Shown here piece by piece: positions 2,006-31,374 of a stretch of 31,374 nt of DNA. The position numbers and the translations under genes are program-made. The notes below the pieces were generated by a model that saw only the letters and a program-made list of their open reading frames with translations, was not told the DNA's origin and did no database searches. Source of the stretch: a virus. Lineage: Duplodnaviria > Heunggongvirae > Uroviricota > Caudoviricetes. Location: the IMG/VR virus record IMGVR_UViG_2802429243_000002. One strand, given 5' to 3'. Position 1 is the stretch's first letter, and each line of letters opens with the position of its first letter.

Positions 2006-2590
2006 TTACTCCATAACAGGGACAGCAGGCCACTCAATATCCGGTGCTACTGATGTATCAACACGGTTCAGCAACACCCGATACTTTTTCCAGACTTCCA
2101 GCAACGAGATTTCTTCCTCCGTTGCAATTTCCAGATCTGCAGCATCCTGAAGCGGCGCAATATGCTCACTGGCTACCTGCATCAGGTTGTTTTTTGTTTC
2201 TTCCGCCTCCCGGATCCGGAACAGTTTTTCTGCTTCCGTATCCTTCACCCAGGCTGTGCCGTTCCACTTCTGAAACTCCCCTTCCGGCGATAACCAGGTA
2301 ACATTTTCCGGTAACGGACCGAGTTCAGAAATAAATAACGCGTCGCCGGAAGCCACGTCATAAACCGTTTTACCCCGATGATCTTCAACGAGATGCCACG
2401 ATGACTCATCACTGTTGAAAACAGCCACGAAGCCAGCCGGAATATCTGGCGGTGCAATATCGGTACTGTTTGCTGGCAGACCTGTATGAGGCGGAATATA
2501 TGCATCACCTTCACCAATAAATTCATTAGTTCCGGCCAGCAGATTATAAATTTTTATGGTCCGTGGTTGTTCACTCATTCTGAATGCCAT
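2006..2590 (-). CDS. tfa: Tail fiber assembly protein (Tfa family)
   Basis: 194-aa ORF immediately downstream of stf with a 1-nt overlap. Size, position and sequence ([24 protein letters not shown]...) are typical of lambdoid Tfa chaperones. Confidence 0.85.
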
Positions 2591-26050: not shown

Positions 26051-26302
26051 TTAGTCCTGATTTTTATCCACCCTGAGTAGTTCGCGCAGAGCAAAGGCAT
26101 CCCCTTTTCTGGCAAGCTTAAACAATGCCGCTCGTAACTCGGCTTCACCTTTCGCTCTGCCCTTACGGATGGCCGCATAAAAATCTGTCATTGCTTCCCG
26201 ATTTTCTTTCAGTCGGTTCAGATCAACATCCAGAACGTCAGCGATTTGTTGTGCAGTCATCCGGCACGCTGCCAGAGACTCGACTTTCGAATACGGAATC
26301 AT
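26051..26302 (-). CDS. Small putative HTH DNA-binding protein (Nu1-like N-terminal pattern)
   Basis: 83 aa with a GGGGGTGA SD-like sequence upstream. MTAQQIADVLDVDLNRL resembles winged-HTH packaging proteins. The start is uncertain because of a 65-nt overlap with the upstream gene. Confidence 0.6.
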   Translation of the reverse strand: MIPYSKVESLAACRMTAQQIADVLDVDLNRLKENREAMTDFYAAIRKGRAKGEAELRAALFKLARKGDAFALRELLRVDKNQD

Positions 26303-27170
26303 TTGTCACCCCCATTGATATGCAGGGTGTCTTCTTCCTGTATTTTTCGTGAAGGATTTTTACTGCAGCGTTGTTCCAGGTGACCTGATGGTGAATGCGT
26401 TTATGGCTGGCACCCATCAGTGAGATTTTTACGCACGACGGCGAATACATGACGGAGTAAAAACTTTTAACGTAGGTTCCGGAATCCAGATACAGCTCGG
26501 TCATTCCGCCGCTGTTTTTCTGCGTCTGTTTCTGCCCTAACTGGACAGCACCGATCGTCATAAACAATTCACCACAGCGACCGAGATTCGTGTACGTATT
26601 CACATCCTCGTTAATGCGCCCCATGAATGAGAACGGTCGATCAACCGAACAGATAAAGCTGTTCATTGCCTTGCGTTTCACCCACGAAGCATGGCCGCCA
26701 TTGTCACCAAGAAAATCCCCGCCCTGCGACATAGCGATGGAAAGCGCGGGTATTGATTCGTAATACGCCAGCATTTCAGAAAGGATCGCATCCAGTTTCC
26801 TTATCGGGAAATAGGCCTGGTCATAGTTGCGATCCACCCGAAACTGGAACTCGTGATAATCATCATCGAGCTGAATGAAGTATTTACACCCGACCAGTTT
26901 TGCCAGGTCGAAACAGGCATTACGGGCGTAAAAAATTGAGCGGCGGTCACCAAAATTATCGGCTTCGTCAAAACGACTGGCAATATCGGCTTTGGAAAAT
27001 ACCAGCACCTGTTCACCAAATTCAGCCATGTACTGATGCCGTGTCTTATCTTCATCATCAACAACGATAAAAATTTTCCCGGTATAGCCAGCACGACGCA
27101 ACGTCCGGTAAGTCAGAACTTTGTCCGGTCGCCCGTGAGTCAGAATAAAGGCGCAAAAATCATCACGCAT
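26238..27170 (-). CDS. GT-A-fold (family 2-like) glycosyltransferase-like protein
   Basis: Probable ATG at 27170 preceded by a strong AGGAGGAGGAGG SD. Three motifs in GT2-like order and spacing: ILTHGRPD (cf. IPTYNRP), VVDDEDKT (cf. DDGSTD) and QLDDDY (DxD). No obvious transmembrane segment. Confidence 0.6.
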   Translation of the reverse strand: MRDDFCAFILTHGRPDKVLTYRTLRRAGYTGKIFIVVDDEDKTRHQYMAEFGEQVLVFSKADIASRFDEADNFGDRRSIFYARNACFDLAKLVGCKYFIQLDDDYHEFQFRVDRNYDQAYFPIRKLDAILSEMLAYYESIPALSIAMSQGGDFLGDNGGHASWVKRKAMNSFICSVDRPFSFMGRINEDVNTYTNLGRCGELFMTIGAVQLGQKQTQKNSGGMTELYLDSGTYVKSFYSVMYSPSCVKISLMGASHKRIHHQVTWNNAAVKILHEKYRKKTPCISMGVTNDSVFESRVSGSVPDDCTTNR

Positions 27171-27957
27171 ATTCCTCCTCCTCCTCCCCGCCATGCATGA
27201 TCTCCACCATGCGCTGCGTCATTCGGACAAATCCATTTTCAATAGCCTGCTGATAATCAATGATCACCAGCGCCGACTCCTCGAAAAGGCACTGAATTTC
27301 AGCGGGGGCATGAGCGTAATAGTCCGCAATTCTGCTGAAATTAAACACTGTGTGACGTTCTGCCGCACACAGGAGGAATTTCTCAATATCAGGATCAAGG
27401 GACGCCGAACGTATCCGGCTGATCAGCTCCTGAGTTTTCGTATCGTCGTAAAGTTCACTGATATCCGGTTTACCGCCCGACGGCTCATAAACAGGCGTAT
27501 CAATTTTCGTCGTATACGGCTCCTCCTCATTTCCTGTACCGGGCAAAACATCCGTCAACAGTTCATCAATTTCTGTCGGGATGAAGCCTGTCAGGGAGAC
27601 ATCAAAATCAGCATTGATTAGGTCCGACAGCTCCATCCGCAACAGATCTTCATCCCAGCCAGCATTCATCGGCAGGCGATTATCTGCCAGGCGGTACGCC
27701 TTTTTCTGCTCATCCGTCAGGCCAGACAGAACAATGACCGGAACAGAATCCATTTTGAGCATTTCAGCCGCCATAACACGACCGTGACCCGCAATAATTT
27801 CGCCCTTTTCGTCAATCAGCACCGGATTAGTCCAGCCGAATTGCTTAATACTTTCTACCAGTTGTGCCACCTGCTCAGTACTGTGCGTCCTGGCGTTGTG
27901 CGCATACGGTGACAATTCTTGTAATGGGCGATAGACTATCTTTAATTTCTCGCTCAT
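27163..27957 (-). CDS. ParB-like nuclease (ParB N-terminal / sulfiredoxin-fold) domain protein
   Basis: 264 aa. N-terminal region (LQELSPYAHNARTHSTEQVAQLVESIKQFGWTNPVLID...IIAGHGRVMAA) matches the ParB N-terminal domain pattern; acidic GGEEEEEYA C-terminus. Confidence 0.8.
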   Translation of the reverse strand: MSEKLKIVYRPLQELSPYAHNARTHSTEQVAQLVESIKQFGWTNPVLIDEKGEIIAGHGRVMAAEMLKMDSVPVIVLSGLTDEQKKAYRLADNRLPMNAGWDEDLLRMELSDLINADFDVSLTGFIPTEIDELLTDVLPGTGNEEEPYTTKIDTPVYEPSGGKPDISELYDDTKTQELISRIRSASLDPDIEKFLLCAAERHTVFNFSRIADYYAHAPAEIQCLFEESALVIIDYQQAIENGFVRMTQRMVEIMHGGEEEEEYA

Positions 27958-28094: not shown

Positions 28095-29552
28095 TTAGGA
28101 GCGCCAAAAAAAACCTGAAAACAATATAATAACAGGATAAATTTCAAGGCGACCAAGAATCATAGCTATGCACATTAAATATTTTGCAATGTCATTAAGC
28201 ACTCCGAATGACGATGCAGTAGCCCCAAAACCTAATCCCATATTATTAATACATGCAGCCACTGTTGCAAATGATGTAAGAAAATCATATCCCATACCAT
28301 TTAACACCAGTATAAAAAACACCGTGAAGAGAGTATAAAGAAAAAAGAAACTCCATACAGACCTCATTACACGATCTGTAACTATCTTCCCTCCTACATT
28401 TACACTCAACAATGCTCTGGGATGAGAAAGTTGATTTATCTCGTGTTTGCTTTGTTTGAAAAGTATAAGAAATCGAAGTGACTTAATTCCACCACAGGTT
28501 GAACCGATACATCCCCCAAAGAAACTTGACAACAGCAAAAACACTATCGTGTGCGTGGGCCAGTTTGCATAATCCTGCGTAGCTAAACCATTATCAGTGA
28601 GCATGGAGCTGGCAAGAAAAAACGAATGAATAAAACTTCCATGCAAGTCATACATACCTATATGCCAGACCTGGAAAGAGGTAACAATGATCACCCCTAA
28701 GGCTATTAACAGAAAGAAACGAAGTTCAATATCTCTGATTAAAGGTTTTATCGTTTTTCTGCTAATAACAATATACCAAAGAGTGAAGTTGAAAGCCGAT
28801 AGCAGGGAAAAAGAACCAGCCACCAGCTCAACCAAATAGTTATTAAAATATCCGATACTCTCGCTATGAGTTGAGAAACCACCAAGCGAAACTGTGGAAA
28901 TCCCGTGACAAATAGCATCAAACAAAGGCATTCCTGCAAGTCTATAACAGACAATACAAGCAATACCTAATAAAGAATAAGTTATCCACAGTGTCCGTGA
29001 CGTATCGGCCAGGCGGGGAGTGAGTTTGTCATCCTTAAATGGCCCCGGCATTTCTGACTGATAAAGCTTTGCACCACCAATACCCAATAATGGCAATACT
29101 GCAACCGCCAGAACAATAACTCCTAAACCACCTATAAAATTTAACTGTGACCGATAGTACAAATATGCCCGAGGTAATGAACTAACATCATCAATTACAG
29201 TTGCTCCTGTTGTTGTTATTCCAGAAACCCCTTCAAACAGAGCATCAATGAACGTTAAATTAAGTTCTGAGTCAATCCATAAAGGGAATGCACTAATAAC
29301 AGAAAACAAAATCCAAAACATTACAATTATAATAAACCCATCACGGGTACGTAATTGAATGCCAGATTTCTTAGTTGTATACCACGCTCCGCCACCAATG
29401 CAAAAAAATATAACGAAAGTTATAAAGAAAACGAACAGGCTTTTTTCTTTATAAAACAATGCTACAACCATTGGTGGCAACATTGAAAGACTATAGAGCC
29501 AAACCAGGAACCCACACATATGAGTAACAACTCTTACATGAGATGTATTCAT
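28095..29552 (-). CDS. trkG: TrkH/TrkG-family potassium uptake protein (prophage moron)
   Basis: Probable ATG at 29552 (MNTSHVRVV...), giving 485 aa; the ORF track starts 6 codons upstream at TTG. Multiple transmembrane segments, Trk-family selectivity-filter-like glycine motifs. Markedly AT-rich compared with neighbouring phage genes. Confidence 0.85.
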   Translation of the reverse strand: MNTSHVRVVTHMCGFLVWLYSLSMLPPMVVALFYKEKSLFVFFITFVIFFCIGGGAWYTTKKSGIQLRTRDGFIIIVMFWILFSVISAFPLWIDSELNLTFIDALFEGVSGITTTGATVIDDVSSLPRAYLYYRSQLNFIGGLGVIVLAVAVLPLLGIGGAKLYQSEMPGPFKDDKLTPRLADTSRTLWITYSLLGIACIVCYRLAGMPLFDAICHGISTVSLGGFSTHSESIGYFNNYLVELVAGSFSLLSAFNFTLWYIVISRKTIKPLIRDIELRFFLLIALGVIIVTSFQVWHIGMYDLHGSFIHSFFLASSMLTDNGLATQDYANWPTHTIVFLLLSSFFGGCIGSTCGGIKSLRFLILFKQSKHEINQLSHPRALLSVNVGGKIVTDRVMRSVWSFFFLYTLFTVFFILVLNGMGYDFLTSFATVAACINNMGLGFGATASSFGVLNDIAKYLMCIAMILGRLEIYPVIILFSGFFWRS

Positions 29553-29689
29553 ATCTAAATATTCTTTCAATTATAACCACCTTGCTGCAATATTATGATT
29601 ATACTGTATAAAATTTAACTCCTCTTAGATCTTACTTCACTGTTCCTTATGAAACAATCATCAAAATGAATCATATTGTAGTTAAGATT

Positions 29690-30154
29690 TTACTTTAAAC
29701 ACTGTTCGGTTATGTATTGCTGAGCACCTTCAAGTTGGGCCTGCATCATTACCAGTCGTTCCCGGAGGGTGAAATAATCCCGTTCAGCGGTGTCTGCCAG
29801 TCTGGGGGAGACTGCATTATCCACGCTGGAGGTGGCGGTGGCTTCACGCACTGACTGACAGACTGCTTTGATGCGCAACCGACGACGACCAGCGGCAACA
29901 TCATCACGCAGAGCATCATTTTCAGCTTTCGCATCAGCTAACTCCTTCAGGTATTTTGCATCGAGTGCAGCAACATCACGCTGGCGTATCTGCATGTCAG
30001 TAATGATTGCGGTCGCCTGGTTGAGTTTTTCCGTCACATTATCGCGTTGCGCTTTGTAGGTAATGGCATTATCACGGTAATGATTAACAGCCCATGACAG
30101 GCAGACGATGATGCAGATAACCAGAGCATAAATAATCACGGCAACTCTGCTCAC
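29690..30154 (-). CDS. Rz: Rz-type i-spanin
   Basis: N-terminal TM segment ([18 protein letters not shown]) then a charged coiled-coil-like periplasmic domain. Probable GTG start at 30154 overlapping the endolysin stop (GTGA); the track starts 5 codons upstream at TTG. Confidence 0.85.
29749..29934 (-). CDS. Rz1: Rz1-type o-spanin lipoprotein, nested in Rz in the +1 frame
   Basis: Lies entirely within Rz in a different frame. Signal peptide with lipobox VVGC and a proline-rich mature part (KPPPPPAW). Confidence 0.85.
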
Positions 30155-30684
30155 TGCTCTATCCCCCAACAGGCTAATGCGCTCTCCTGATCACGACGAA
30201 TAACCTGACCGTAACAGTTATTTGAACGAAGGCGGCAATCGCGCCCCCTGTCCTTAATCCACCAGCGAATCGCCTCGCAGGCACCTTTACGATCACCTGC
30301 ATTCAGCCGCTTATAAAATGTCGACGGAAAACACTTAGCGGGGCCAATGTTATAGGGACAAAATGACGCGATACCCGCTTTTTGTGGTTCGGTCAGTGTT
30401 ACTTTAATATTGCGATCCACCCATGCCAGCGCCTTATCACGCTCAATGGCATTAACCTGATCGCATTTTTCCTTCGTCAGTGTCATGCCCGGAATAACAG
30501 GTTTACCATCTACTATCGTGGCACCGCGACAGATGGTCCATATGCCGGAACCATCGCGGTATGCCGTAGTGTGGTTACCCTCTTTTTCATCCAGAAACTG
30601 GTCAAGTATCTCAGGAGCAGATGCGCCTGCTCCAATCAGCGCCAGAACGGCCGCTGACAGGCCGTATTTGGTTTTTGCGTTCAT
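30151..30684 (-). CDS. R: SAR-type endolysin (glycoside hydrolase family 24 lysozyme)
   Basis: 177 aa with a weakly hydrophobic Gly/Ala-rich N-terminal segment ([18 protein letters not shown]) and the E-x8-D-x5-T lysozyme catalytic triad ([16 protein letters not shown]). Confidence 0.88.
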
Positions 30685-30789
30685 GGATATTTATCAGGAT
30701 TTATCGGTTTCTGAACCCTGGATATGTTTATCTGCCCCGGCCTGTTGAATCAGGCGGGGAAAAGGTAAATACAATCAAGAGGATTATTT

Positions 30790-31062
30790 ATGGACAATAA
30801 CACCATTTCTCTACAGGAGTTGCTCGACTGCATTTCCAGGCTTCGGGATGATGTAAATGCCCTCACTGTTGCATTTTCATATCTGGCCTTATCAATTCCC
30901 AGAGAACAAATGCAACCAACACTGGCATCGCTCCTGCTTGAATCACGCAACCCCAAATGGTCCCAGGAACAACAAAATTCTTTTAAGTGGCTGGCGACAT
31001 TACTGGAAGAAAAATATGCTGGTAAAATTACCATTTCGGTGGAGTCTTCAGAAAATCAGTAA
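30790..31062 (+). CDS. Hypothetical 90-aa protein, opposite orientation to the lysis genes
   Basis: Well-formed ORF with an AAGAGGA SD 7 nt upstream of the ATG. No transmembrane segment and no family recognised. Confidence 0.6.
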   Translation: MDNNTISLQELLDCISRLRDDVNALTVAFSYLALSIPREQMQPTLASLLLESRNPKWSQEQQNSFKWLATLLEEKYAGKITISVESSENQ

Positions 31063-31247
31063 TTCTTCCTGGTAGCTTTCCTTTGTAGGTTATCCACACA
31101 TTCTGCGCCTCTAAAATTACGGGGCGCTTTTCCGGCGACTGCTCATCCCCTTCACATAACCCGGCAGCAACATCCAGGAAGACCTGTCTGATGCTCCTTC
31201 TGGCTGCAGCCTCATAAAACTCCAGCGCAGCACCTTCAACACGGTCC
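31028..31247 (-). pseudogene. 5'-truncated ORF interrupted by the IS element
   Basis: A minus-strand frame is open for 73 codons from the IS boundary to a stop at 31028 (...VEGAALEFYEAAARRSIRQVFLDVAAGLCEGDEQSPEKRPVILEAQNVWITYKGKLPGRITDFLKTPPKW) with no in-frame Met, so the start must lie beyond the IS insertion. Confidence 0.55.
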
Positions 31248-31374
31248 TGAATCGCCCCGGGAATCCTGGAGACTAAACTCCTTGAGAGAGAGGTAAACAG
31301 GATGACTAAAAATACGCGCTTTTCCCCTGAGGTCCGTCAGCGGGCCGTTCGTATGGTTATCGAAAGCCAGAATG
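31248..31374 (+). mobile_element. IS3-family insertion sequence (IS629/IS1203-like), left end only
   Basis: Terminal sequence TGAATCGCCCCGGGAATCCTGGAGACTAAACTCC followed about 55 bp later by an orfA start, as in IS629-type elements. The rest of the element lies outside the window. Confidence 0.75.
31302..31374 (+). CDS. IS3-family transposase OrfA, N-terminal 24 codons (3' end outside window)
   Basis: Translation MTKNTRFSPEVRQRAVRMVIESQN matches the characteristic IS629/IS1203-type OrfA N-terminus; AGGTAAACAGG precedes the ATG. Confidence 0.75.
   Translation, partial: MTKNTRFSPEVRQRAVRMVIESQN

What the first reader, a model, noticed from the sequence alone, without database searches (positions are those of the whole stretch)
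30790..31062. Unrecognised 90-aa gene placed opposite the lysis genes and overlapping the IS-truncated ORF
A cleanly formed gene with a strong SD lies on the plus strand immediately upstream of the endolysin, converging tail-to-tail on the IS-truncated minus-strand ORF with about 35 bp of overlap. The product is soluble and unrecognised. Orientation opposite to the late operon is typical of lysogen-expressed cargo such as superinfection exclusion or anti-phage factors.
Basis: inference. Interest (0 to 1): 0.45.

Follow-up and report, generated by a model that had tools for sequence, protein, structure and literature searches.

The report
Conserved small prophage accessory gene
The 90-codon reading frame is a real gene that many E. 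coli prophages carry backwards inside their lysis genes. Its relatives are ordinary chromosomal genes next to dinI and bssS in Serratia and Sodalis, and its function is still unknown.

Summary
An ATG ORF with a GAGG Shine-Dalgarno runs 30790..31062 (+). It lies between the SAR-type lysozyme (30151..30684, -) and a ydfR/DUF1327 gene (31028..31247, -) that an IS3-family element cuts at 31248. The tail-to-tail overlap is exactly 35 bp.

It is a true coding gene. It is intact in 34 of 35 distinct haplotypes (151 of 152 IMG/VR copies), and pN/pS is 0.27-0.39. The wobble-sharing antisense ORF is broken by stop codons in most haplotypes. Homologues at 30-40% identity exist in other Enterobacterales.

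RefSeq already annotates it as a hypothetical protein, and it belongs to PHROG 2411 (unknown function). It sits in a low-GC segment of about 470 bp that K-12 Qin lacks.

The new result is that in all 36 Serratia, Sodalis, Acerihabitans, Biostraticola and Hafnia genomes recovered by the scan, the homologue is a core gene between dinI and bssS.

The product is an acidic, soluble three-helix protein. It has no Pfam, NCBIfam, PADLOC or PDB-sequence match and no specific structural neighbour.

The moron reading is supported. The anti-phage reading has no support. Expression and function are untested. Interest is modest.

The parts
30790..31062 (+). ORF90 coding sequence. The product is 90 aa, 10.3 kDa, pI 4.6, and belongs to PHROG 2411 (called 'Ybl58' by some sources).
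   Evidence: Intact in 34/35 haplotypes. pN/pS is 0.27. Distant homologues exist. AF2 predicts a three-helix bundle with pLDDT 81-82.
30777..30783 (+). Shine-Dalgarno sequence AAGAGGA. The GAGG core is at 30779-30782, 7 nt before the ATG.
   Evidence: GAGG is kept in all upstream haplotypes.
30735..30759 (.). Conserved hairpin CCCCGGCCTG-TTGAAT-CAGGCGGGG upstream of ORF90. It is not followed by a T-run on either strand. It may be a 5'-terminal stem-loop of the ORF90 mRNA (inference).
   Evidence: Folding gives -15.6 kcal/mol for the hairpin alone. The surrounding 71 nt have a z-score of -3.4. The core GCCTG/CAGGC is invariant, and changes in the outer stem between clades are partly compensatory.
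30700..30728 (+). Weak candidate promoter TTTATC-N17-TATGTT. It would place a transcription start near 30735, at the base of the hairpin.
   Evidence: 3/6 and 4/6 hexamer matches, below the threshold of the scanner used. The segment 30685-30732 is nearly invariant (10% variable sites, against 24% in the ORF). This is inference only.
31105..31131 (+). Candidate intrinsic terminator for ORF90: GCGCCTC-TAAAATTAC-GGGGCGC followed by TTTT. It lies antisense inside the ydfR coding sequence.
   Evidence: The hairpin appears in the MFE fold at -11.1 kcal/mol. It is nearly invariant across haplotypes. It lies inside the segment that K-12 lacks. The scanner missed it because the loop is 9 nt and there are only 4 T.
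30698..31168 (.). Segment of about 470 bp that replaces about 95 bp of K-12 Qin. It carries the hairpin, ORF90, the candidate terminator and an alternative 3' end for ydfR. The boundaries are approximate.
   Evidence: Alignment with K-12 Qin and with the O177:H21 prophage. GC is 44.8%, against 50-54% in the flanks.
31028..31247 (-). 3' remnant of ydfR (DUF1327 family, codons 43-114 of 114). It overlaps the ORF90 3' end by 35 nt.
   Evidence: PHROG 406, E 1e-65, for the intact copy.
31248..31374 (+). Left end of an IS3-family insertion sequence (orfA ATG at 31303). It splits ydfR and separates the holin gene from the lysozyme gene.
   Evidence: Matches of 100% identity start at window 31247 and are annotated as IS3 family transposase.
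30151..30684 (-). RrrQ-type phage lysozyme. ORF90 lies on the opposite strand, 106 bp upstream of its start codon.
30750..31034 (-). Antisense 94-aa ORF that shares third-codon positions with ORF90. It is rejected as a gene.
   Evidence: Intact in only 12/35 haplotypes. It has a stop at codon 23 throughout the second clade.

Best explanation
ORF90 is a genuine protein-coding accessory gene (a 'moron'). It lies in a low-GC segment of about 470 bp in the lysis module of Qin/Rac-like lambdoid prophages of Escherichia. It sits between ydfR and the lysozyme gene and reads against the late operon. The same segment supplies the alternative 3' end of ydfR.

The product is a 10-kDa acidic cytoplasmic three-helix protein of a small Enterobacterales-only family (PHROG 2411; motif ELL..I..LR..VN.L..AFSYLAF ... 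ES.N ... Q..F..LA). The chromosomal members are single-gene units in a fixed core position, pyrC-dinI-X-bssS-solA, in Serratia, Sodalis, Acerihabitans, Biostraticola and Hafnia. In most of them a conserved -10-like element, GGTCTGTAAT or GGTCTGTACT, lies upstream, and it has a C at the position where -13 would fall. This suggests that phages picked up a host gene, though the direction of transfer was not tested.

Shown: it is coding, it is conserved, it lies in a segment K-12 Qin lacks, and it has core chromosomal homologues.

Inferred: it is transcribed on its own from a weak promoter near 30700-30728 and terminates near 31131. It acts in the lysogen as a small protein-binding regulator of host stress, stationary-phase or biofilm physiology, like other small prophage-borne 'connector' proteins. 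It is not a lysis, structural or defence protein.
For: Coding:
- Intact in 34/35 haplotypes, while the antisense ORF is broken.
- pN/pS is 0.27. In a collinear subset it is 0.37-0.39, similar to ydfR at 0.39-0.42.
- The SD and ATG are conserved.
- An Escherichia-only profile finds 88-97-aa relatives at E 5e-15 to 6e-5 in an exhaustive search.
- A wider profile finds Serratia, Sodalis, Chania and Citrobacter proteins at E 1e-17 to 1e-27.
- The 50-sequence alignment has invariant Y31, L32 and E51.

Segment and moron features:
- Absent from K-12 Qin, with sharp homology breaks.
- GC is 43%, against about 50% in the flanks.
- The architecture lysozyme(-) ORF90(+) ydfR-variant(-) holin(-) is seen in full in 147 of 160 IMG/VR loci, and the other loci show parts of the same order.
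- In phage phiSTEC1575-Stx2k the ydfR+ORF90 pair is joined to a different lysis set. An IraM-like anti-adapter gene sits nearby in the same anti-late orientation.
- Citrobacter and another phage carry homologues that also oppose their late or lysis genes.

Host origin and physiology:
- 36 of 38 species-level genome loci have dinI, X and bssS in that order.
- dinI has its own LexA box and terminator, so X is a separate transcription unit.
- An upstream -35/-10-like block is conserved across most of these genera. A paralogue has GGTCTATAAT.

Protein:
- Three helices, pLDDT 81-82 in two runs.
- pI 4.6 and no transmembrane segment.
Against: - No expression data of any kind were found.
- No sigma-70 promoter of at least 9/12 lies near the ORF. 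The best candidates are weak.
- The terminator has only four T.
- Function is argued from context and protein type alone. dinI, X and bssS are separate transcription units, so synteny says little about function.
- Fold searches return only generic helical matches.
- Roughly a tenth of E. coli copies in the protein collection appear truncated or frameshifted (a rough reading of the contig counts). The gene is therefore dispensable in many prophages.
- In this window the surrounding lysis cassette is already broken by an IS.
Confidence: 0.55

Rival explanations
1. Lysogen-expressed anti-phage or superinfection-exclusion factor. The small protein would block infection or replication of incoming phages.
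For: It is oriented against the late operon, lies in a segment K-12 Qin lacks, and has a distinct GC content. Many prophage morons are defence genes (general knowledge).
Against: - No PADLOC match at E<=1.
- The protein is soluble and has no membrane segment, unlike the classic exclusion proteins SieB and Imm (the comparison is from general knowledge).
- Most homologues outside Escherichia and Citrobacter are core chromosomal genes at a fixed dinI-bssS position across several genera. They are not in variable islands.
- It is a single gene with no partner.
Confidence: 0.12
2. A modulator of the lysis module. Either the protein tunes lysis, or convergent transcription into ydfR and against the late transcript dampens leaky late or lysis expression in lysogens.
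For: It lies next to lysis genes in three different phage backbones. It has a 35-bp convergent overlap with ydfR, and its candidate terminator sits inside ydfR. In 160/160 IMG/VR loci it occurs with the ydfR C-terminal variant.
Against: - Chromosomal orthologues exist in non-phage contexts.
- The region after Q and around the lysis genes is a general hot spot for morons. Examples are stx and the IraM-like gene, and bor in lambda (general knowledge).
- It has no features of a holin, antiholin or spanin.
- The link with the ydfR variant is physical, because both lie in the same segment.
Confidence: 0.12
3. A real gene family, but in these E. coli prophages the copy is a silent passenger with no current function.
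For: There is no convincing promoter. Truncated and frameshifted forms are fairly common. The host prophage here is defective: an IS sits in ydfR, and trkG lies inside the prophage.
Against: pN/pS is well below 1, and the ORF is intact in 151/152 IMG/VR copies across about 20% protein divergence. The SD, the ATG and the upstream 48 bp are conserved.
Confidence: 0.15
4. Not a protein-coding gene. The open frame would be a by-product of constraint on the other strand or on an RNA.
For: The antisense 94-aa ORF shares wobble positions and gives a similar pN/pS of 0.23. A conserved hairpin lies nearby.
Against: The antisense ORF carries stops in 23 of 35 haplotypes, while ORF90 is open in 34. Homologues at 30-40% identity keep the same length and motif in unrelated genomic contexts. 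There is no Rfam match.
Confidence: 0.03

Closest known systems
PHROG 2411 (phage protein family, unknown function), also RefSeq WP_000369847.1 'hypothetical protein' and 'Ybl58'
   Same: Full-length match (1-90 of 90, E 4.9e-57). The Citrobacter, unnamed-phage and Serratia homologues hit the same profile (E 1.9e-33, 1.3e-19 and 4.5e-10).
   Different: Nothing differs, because this is the family itself. The family has no assigned function. As far as I could find, its chromosomal dinI-bssS members have not been described.
Lambda-type morons placed antiparallel in or next to the lysis region (for example bor downstream of Rz in lambda)
   Same: A single small gene inside the late region, opposite in orientation to the late operon. 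It is present or absent between otherwise collinear prophages and differs in GC content.
   Different: Bor is a lipoprotein with a signal peptide and a demonstrated lysogen promoter (general knowledge). ORF90 is cytoplasmic, and its promoter and expression are unproven.
Small anti-adaptor or 'connector' proteins such as IraM and IraP (the prophage-borne IraM-like gene in phiSTEC1575-Stx2k)
   Same: Small proteins of roughly 86-107 aa. An IraM-like gene sits in the same anti-late orientation near the same lysis cassette. That these proteins act by binding a host regulator is general knowledge.
   Different: hhalign finds no sequence relationship (probability 0.1% or less for IraP and for IraM). 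No partner is known for ORF90.
DinI and BssS (small stress- or biofilm-linked proteins that flank the chromosomal homologues)
   Same: Similar size class, each a single-gene unit, and strictly syntenic with X in 36 genomes.
   Different: No homology. They are separate transcription units. No LexA box lies in front of X or ORF90. E. coli K-12 has nothing between dinI and bssS.
YdfR / DUF1327 (the overlapping neighbour)
   Same: It shares 35 bp of DNA, and the same segment carries the YdfR C-terminal variant. pN/pS is similar.
   Different: It is an unrelated protein on the other strand. K-12 YdfR binds the RNase E catalytic half through residues 1-72 (PMC13232886). That is roughly the portion conserved between the two variants, since homology breaks near residue 68.

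Membership tests
PHROG 2411 | Significant full-length match to the family profile | tested here: met
   E 4.9e-57, residues 1-90 against profile positions 1-90.
Moron (independent accessory transcription unit in a prophage) | Present or absent between otherwise collinear phage genomes | tested here: met
   A segment of about 470 bp replaces about 95 bp of K-12 Qin between ydfR codon ~68 and the lysozyme ATG.
Moron (independent accessory transcription unit in a prophage) | Base composition differs from the flanking phage genes | tested here: met
   ORF90 is 42.9% GC and the segment 44.8%, against 50-51% for lysozyme and Rz and 49.6% for the late region.
Moron (independent accessory transcription unit in a prophage) | Own promoter | tested here: inconclusive
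   No site of at least 9/12. The weak candidates are TTTATC-17-TATGTT and TTGAAT-19-TACAAT. The upstream 48 bp are nearly invariant.
Moron (independent accessory transcription unit in a prophage) | Own terminator | tested here: inconclusive
   A 7-bp GC-rich stem with a 9-nt loop and TTTT at 31105-31131. It is conserved and lies inside the segment K-12 lacks, but it falls below the scanner's criteria.
Moron (independent accessory transcription unit in a prophage) | Expressed from the repressed prophage | not testable with these tools
   No transcript or protein data were found.
Known anti-phage defence systems (PADLOC-DB 2.0) | Match to a defence-protein profile | tested here: not met
   No family at E<=1.
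Phage lysis proteins (holin, antiholin, spanin, endolysin) | Transmembrane segment or lipobox, a lysis-family profile, and co-orientation with the lysis operon | tested here: not met
   The maximum 19-residue hydropathy is 0.93. There is no Pfam or PHROG lysis hit. It is on the opposite strand to S, R and Rz.
IraP / IraM anti-adaptor families | Detectable sequence or profile similarity | tested here: not met
   hhalign probability is 0.1% and 0.04%. None of the 25 Pfam families listed for the 50 family members is an Ira family, and the best E-value for any family was 0.0024.
Any Pfam-A or NCBIfam family, or any solved structure | Profile match or a specific structural neighbour | tested here: not met

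The most novel reading that the evidence does not exclude
The family (PHROG 2411 plus the dinI-X-bssS genes) could be an undescribed class of small regulators. They would be stress- or stationary-phase-induced, possibly sigma-S dependent, and would act by binding a host protein. Lambdoid phages of Escherichia and Citrobacter would have captured one as a lysogenic-conversion gene and inserted it head-on into the lysis operon. There it would also end inside ydfR and rewrite the ydfR C-terminus.
Probability: 0.2. Interest if true: 0.5.

Novelty: new member of a known kind. Interest (0 to 1): 0.3.

Why it matters
If the gene is expressed in lysogens, about a fifth of complete E. coli genomes carry a phage-delivered copy of a small protein that Serratia, Sodalis and their relatives keep as a core gene beside dinI and bssS. 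In one search, 1052 of 5426 genomes held at least 80% of the 661-bp locus. That would be one more example of prophages importing host-type small regulators, alongside cold-shock proteins, IraM-like and DinI-like proteins. It would also give a tractable entry point to an uncharacterised 90-residue family. If the gene is silent, it is simply one more hypothetical prophage ORF. For annotation, the practical value is that ORF90 is the real gene and the 94-aa antisense ORF is not.

Tried and rejected
- **Antisense 94-aa ORF (30750..31034, -) as the real gene.** Its ATG overlaps the ydfR stop codon, which looks like translational coupling, and its pN/pS is the same as ORF90's. I rejected it because it carries stops in 23 of 35 haplotypes.
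- **Homology to IraP or IraM.** This was suggested by eye and by the neighbouring IraM-like gene. hhalign found nothing.
- **SOS control.** No LexA box lies near ORF90 or in front of Serratia X. The only box found is the one belonging to dinI.
- **A sigma-54 reading of the conserved TGGCA upstream block.** The spacing does not fit (by eye).
- **A remnant of X in the E. coli K-12 dinI-bssS spacer.** None was found.
- **Shared flanks between the E. coli and Citrobacter copies.** Only the coding region is similar.
- **Known RNA families in 30400-31374.** None.
- **Literature.** Searches for ydfR, DUF1327, ybl58, peptide strings and Serratia+dinI+bssS found nothing on this protein.
- **Query P0033 in IMG/VR.** No loci were returned.

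Full report
**Setting**

The window is the late half of a lambdoid (Rac/Qin-like) prophage read on the minus strand.
- It runs from tail fibre and tail genes, through head and terminase genes, to a ParB-N-like gene and trkG (28095..29570).
- Next come Rz/Rz1 (29690..30169 and 29749..29934) and a lysozyme (30151..30684; PF00959, E 9e-24) whose N-terminus looks like a signal-anchor-release (SAR) type by eye.
- The finding lies just beyond the lysozyme start codon.

**Observation**

- ORF 30790..31062 (+) encodes 90 aa. AAGAGGA sits 6-7 nt before the ATG.
- The converging minus-strand frame is ydfR (DUF1327 family). Its stop codon is at 31028-31030, so the overlap is exactly 35 nt.
- Intact prophages have holin - ydfR (114 aa) - [ORF90 on the other strand] - lysozyme. 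PGAP annotates ORF90 there as a hypothetical protein (WP_000369847.1) with the same 35-nt overlap.
- In the window, homology to ydfR stops at 31247 and an IS3-family element begins. Only ydfR codons 43-114 remain.

**Is it a gene?**

I collected 160 related loci from IMG/VR. Of these, 151 align without gaps over window 30685-31110. Together with the window they make 152 copies and 35 distinct haplotypes in two main clades, about 80% identical at the protein level.
- ORF90 is open in 34 of the 35 haplotypes.
- Variable sites by codon position (1st, 2nd, 3rd) are 12, 13 and 28, and pN/pS is 0.27.
- The minus-strand 94-aa ORF (30750..31034) shares the same third positions, so it shows a similar ratio. 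It is interrupted in 23 of 35 haplotypes, including a stop at codon 23 in the whole second clade. It is not the constrained frame.
- In a subset collinear over 1.1 kb, ORF90 (0.37-0.39) is constrained about as much as ydfR (0.39-0.42) and less than the lysozyme (0.12).
- An exhaustive profile search with Escherichia sequences alone recovered 81-97-aa proteins at E from 5e-15 to 6e-5.
- A wider profile found about 60 further proteins from Serratia, Sodalis, Chania, Gibbsiella, Chimaeribacter, Acerihabitans and Citrobacter.
- The 50-sequence alignment keeps one length class and a clear motif, with invariant Y31, L32 and E51.
- The case for coding is strong.

**What is known about it**

- It matches PHROG 2411, a family of unknown function, over its full length (E 4.9e-57).
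- Nothing matches in Pfam, NCBIfam or PADLOC, or in PDB sequences.
- Some sources call it Ybl58.
- Literature searches found nothing on it.
- AlphaFold2 gives the same three-helix model from shallow and deep alignments: H8-35, H38-52 and H59-76, with a disordered tail and pLDDT 81-82.
- The protein is acidic (pI 4.6) and has no hydrophobic segment.

**Anatomy of the locus**

- Against K-12 Qin, where ydfR abuts rrrQ with a 4-bp overlap, homology breaks inside ydfR at about codon 68. It resumes about 15 bp before the lysozyme ATG.
- The intervening ~470 bp (about 30698-31168) are low in GC (44.8%, against 50-54%). They contain four features:
  - a conserved hairpin at 30735-30759;
  - ORF90;
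  - a hairpin followed by TTTT at 31105-31131;
  - on the other strand, a new 45-residue C-terminus for YdfR.
- The order lysozyme(-) ORF90(+) ydfR-variant(-) holin(-) is complete in 147 of 160 IMG/VR loci. The remaining loci show parts of the same order.
- In phage phiSTEC1575-Stx2k the ydfR+ORF90 pair is followed by a different lysis set. An IraM-like anti-adapter gene lies nearby in the same anti-late orientation.
- Phage Chlobot has the standard arrangement.
- A Citrobacter freundii prophage has a 57-59% identical homologue immediately upstream of its holin and divergent from it. Another phage contig has one facing its late genes.
- Only the coding sequence is shared between the E. coli and Citrobacter copies.

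**Transcription signals**

- These are the weak point. The scanner finds no sigma-70 site of at least 9/12.
- Relaxed scanning gives TTTATC-17-TATGTT, ending at 30728. That would start the mRNA at the foot of the hairpin. It also gives TTGAAT-19-TACAAT.
- The 48 bp at 30685-30732 are almost invariant. They also form the lysozyme leader, so this conservation is ambiguous.
- The hairpin core is invariant, and outer-stem changes between clades are partly compensatory.
- The candidate terminator is modest (-11 kcal/mol, four T) but nearly invariant and specific to the plus strand.

**The new context**

- In one genome per species (GTDB collection), 36 of the 38 loci found place the homologue (X) between dinI and bssS. 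These are Serratia (about 25 species), Sodalis, Acerihabitans, Biostraticola, Hafnia and one Enterobacterales MAG.
- In nearly all of them the full order is pyrC-dinI-X-bssS-solA. This is the E. coli order with one extra gene.
- X is intact in all 36.
- K-12 has only a 286-bp spacer there, with no remnant of X.
- In S. marcescens, dinI has its own LexA box and a strong terminator, so X is a separate unit.
- Upstream of X, a -35/-10-like block is conserved in most of these genera: TTGGCA-N17-TGTAAT in Sodalis-type genomes and ...GGTCTGTACT in Serratia.
- A second chromosomal paralogue, found alone near DUF892 and DUF1883 genes, has GGTCTATAAT.
- From general knowledge, a C at -13 favours sigma-S. 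I treat that only as a lead.

**Interpretation**

ORF90 is best read as a host-type small-protein gene that lambdoid phages carry as a moron.
- The specific guess of exclusion or anti-phage activity has no support. It fits poorly with a family whose other members are mostly core genes at one fixed, non-phage position.
- The recurring position beside lysis genes may reflect only that this region is a known hot spot for morons.
- A role in lysis control, or transcriptional interference with ydfR and the late transcript, cannot be excluded.
- My working mechanism is that a small acidic helical protein binds a host protein and adjusts stress or stationary-phase physiology. This is inference from size, charge, fold class, context and analogy, not from any direct test.

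**Verdict**

This is a real, already-annotated gene with no known function. It lies in a segment that K-12 Qin lacks, and its family and chromosomal relatives are now better defined. Interest is modest (0.3). It would rise if expression in lysogens and a binding partner were shown.

Noticed in passing
window 26238..27194 (-) and 27163..27957 (-): A TET-associated glycosyltransferase (PF20691, E 6e-35) overlaps a ParB-N-like gene between the terminase genes and trkG. This could be a phage DNA-hypermodification module. No TET/JBP gene was looked for.
   Followed up: no
window 2049..2247 (-): A full-length Rfam IS009 RNA (218 bits, E 1.7e-53) lies inside the tail-fibre-assembly gene 2006..2590.
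   Followed up: no
window 30685..30706: An invariant direct repeat, GGATATTTATC and GGATTTATC, lies one helical turn apart immediately upstream (minus strand) of the lysozyme ATG. The lysozyme has no obvious Shine-Dalgarno sequence. The repeat could be a regulatory or ribosome-loading element for R, or part of the ORF90 promoter.
   Followed up: partly
window 31028..31168 (-); L001 4429..4773; L002 4055..4366: YdfR exists in two C-terminal versions. The break is at about residue 68. A 2026 paper maps RNase E binding by K-12 YdfR to residues 1-72 (PMC13232886), which is roughly the shared part. The variant tail is encoded by the ORF90-containing segment and is partly antisense to ORF90.
   Followed up: partly
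L180-L215 (for example L183 3840..3975; L201): A conserved promoter-like block lies upstream of most chromosomal homologues: TTGGCA-N17-TGTAAT in Sodalis-type genomes and GGTCTGTACT in Serratia. The paralogue in L169 has GGTCTATAAT. The -13 C suggests sigma-S selectivity.
   Followed up: partly
L215 (Candidatus Sodalis sp. SoCistrobi) and L214: X is intact while the flanking pyrC and solA give only fragmentary matches. This suggests X is retained in a degrading symbiont genome.
   Followed up: no
L176 4069..4392 (+) (phage phiSTEC1575-Stx2k): An IraM-like anti-adapter gene lies between stx2AB and holin S, in the same anti-late orientation as ORF90. The ydfR+ORF90 pair there is followed by two holins and an M15 peptidase instead of the RrrQ lysozyme.
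   Followed up: partly
L164 6239..6430 (-) (Citrobacter freundii prophage): The Citrobacter homologue also has a convergent, 14-bp overlapping small ORF (63 aa, no PHROG hit) at its 3' end. This mirrors the ORF90/ydfR tail-to-tail overlap.
   Followed up: partly
window 28095..29570 (-) and 31248..31374: trkG sits between the Rz and ParB-like genes, as in Rac. An IS3-family element separates the holin and the ydfR 5' part from the lysozyme, so the lysis cassette of this prophage is probably defective.
   Followed up: partly
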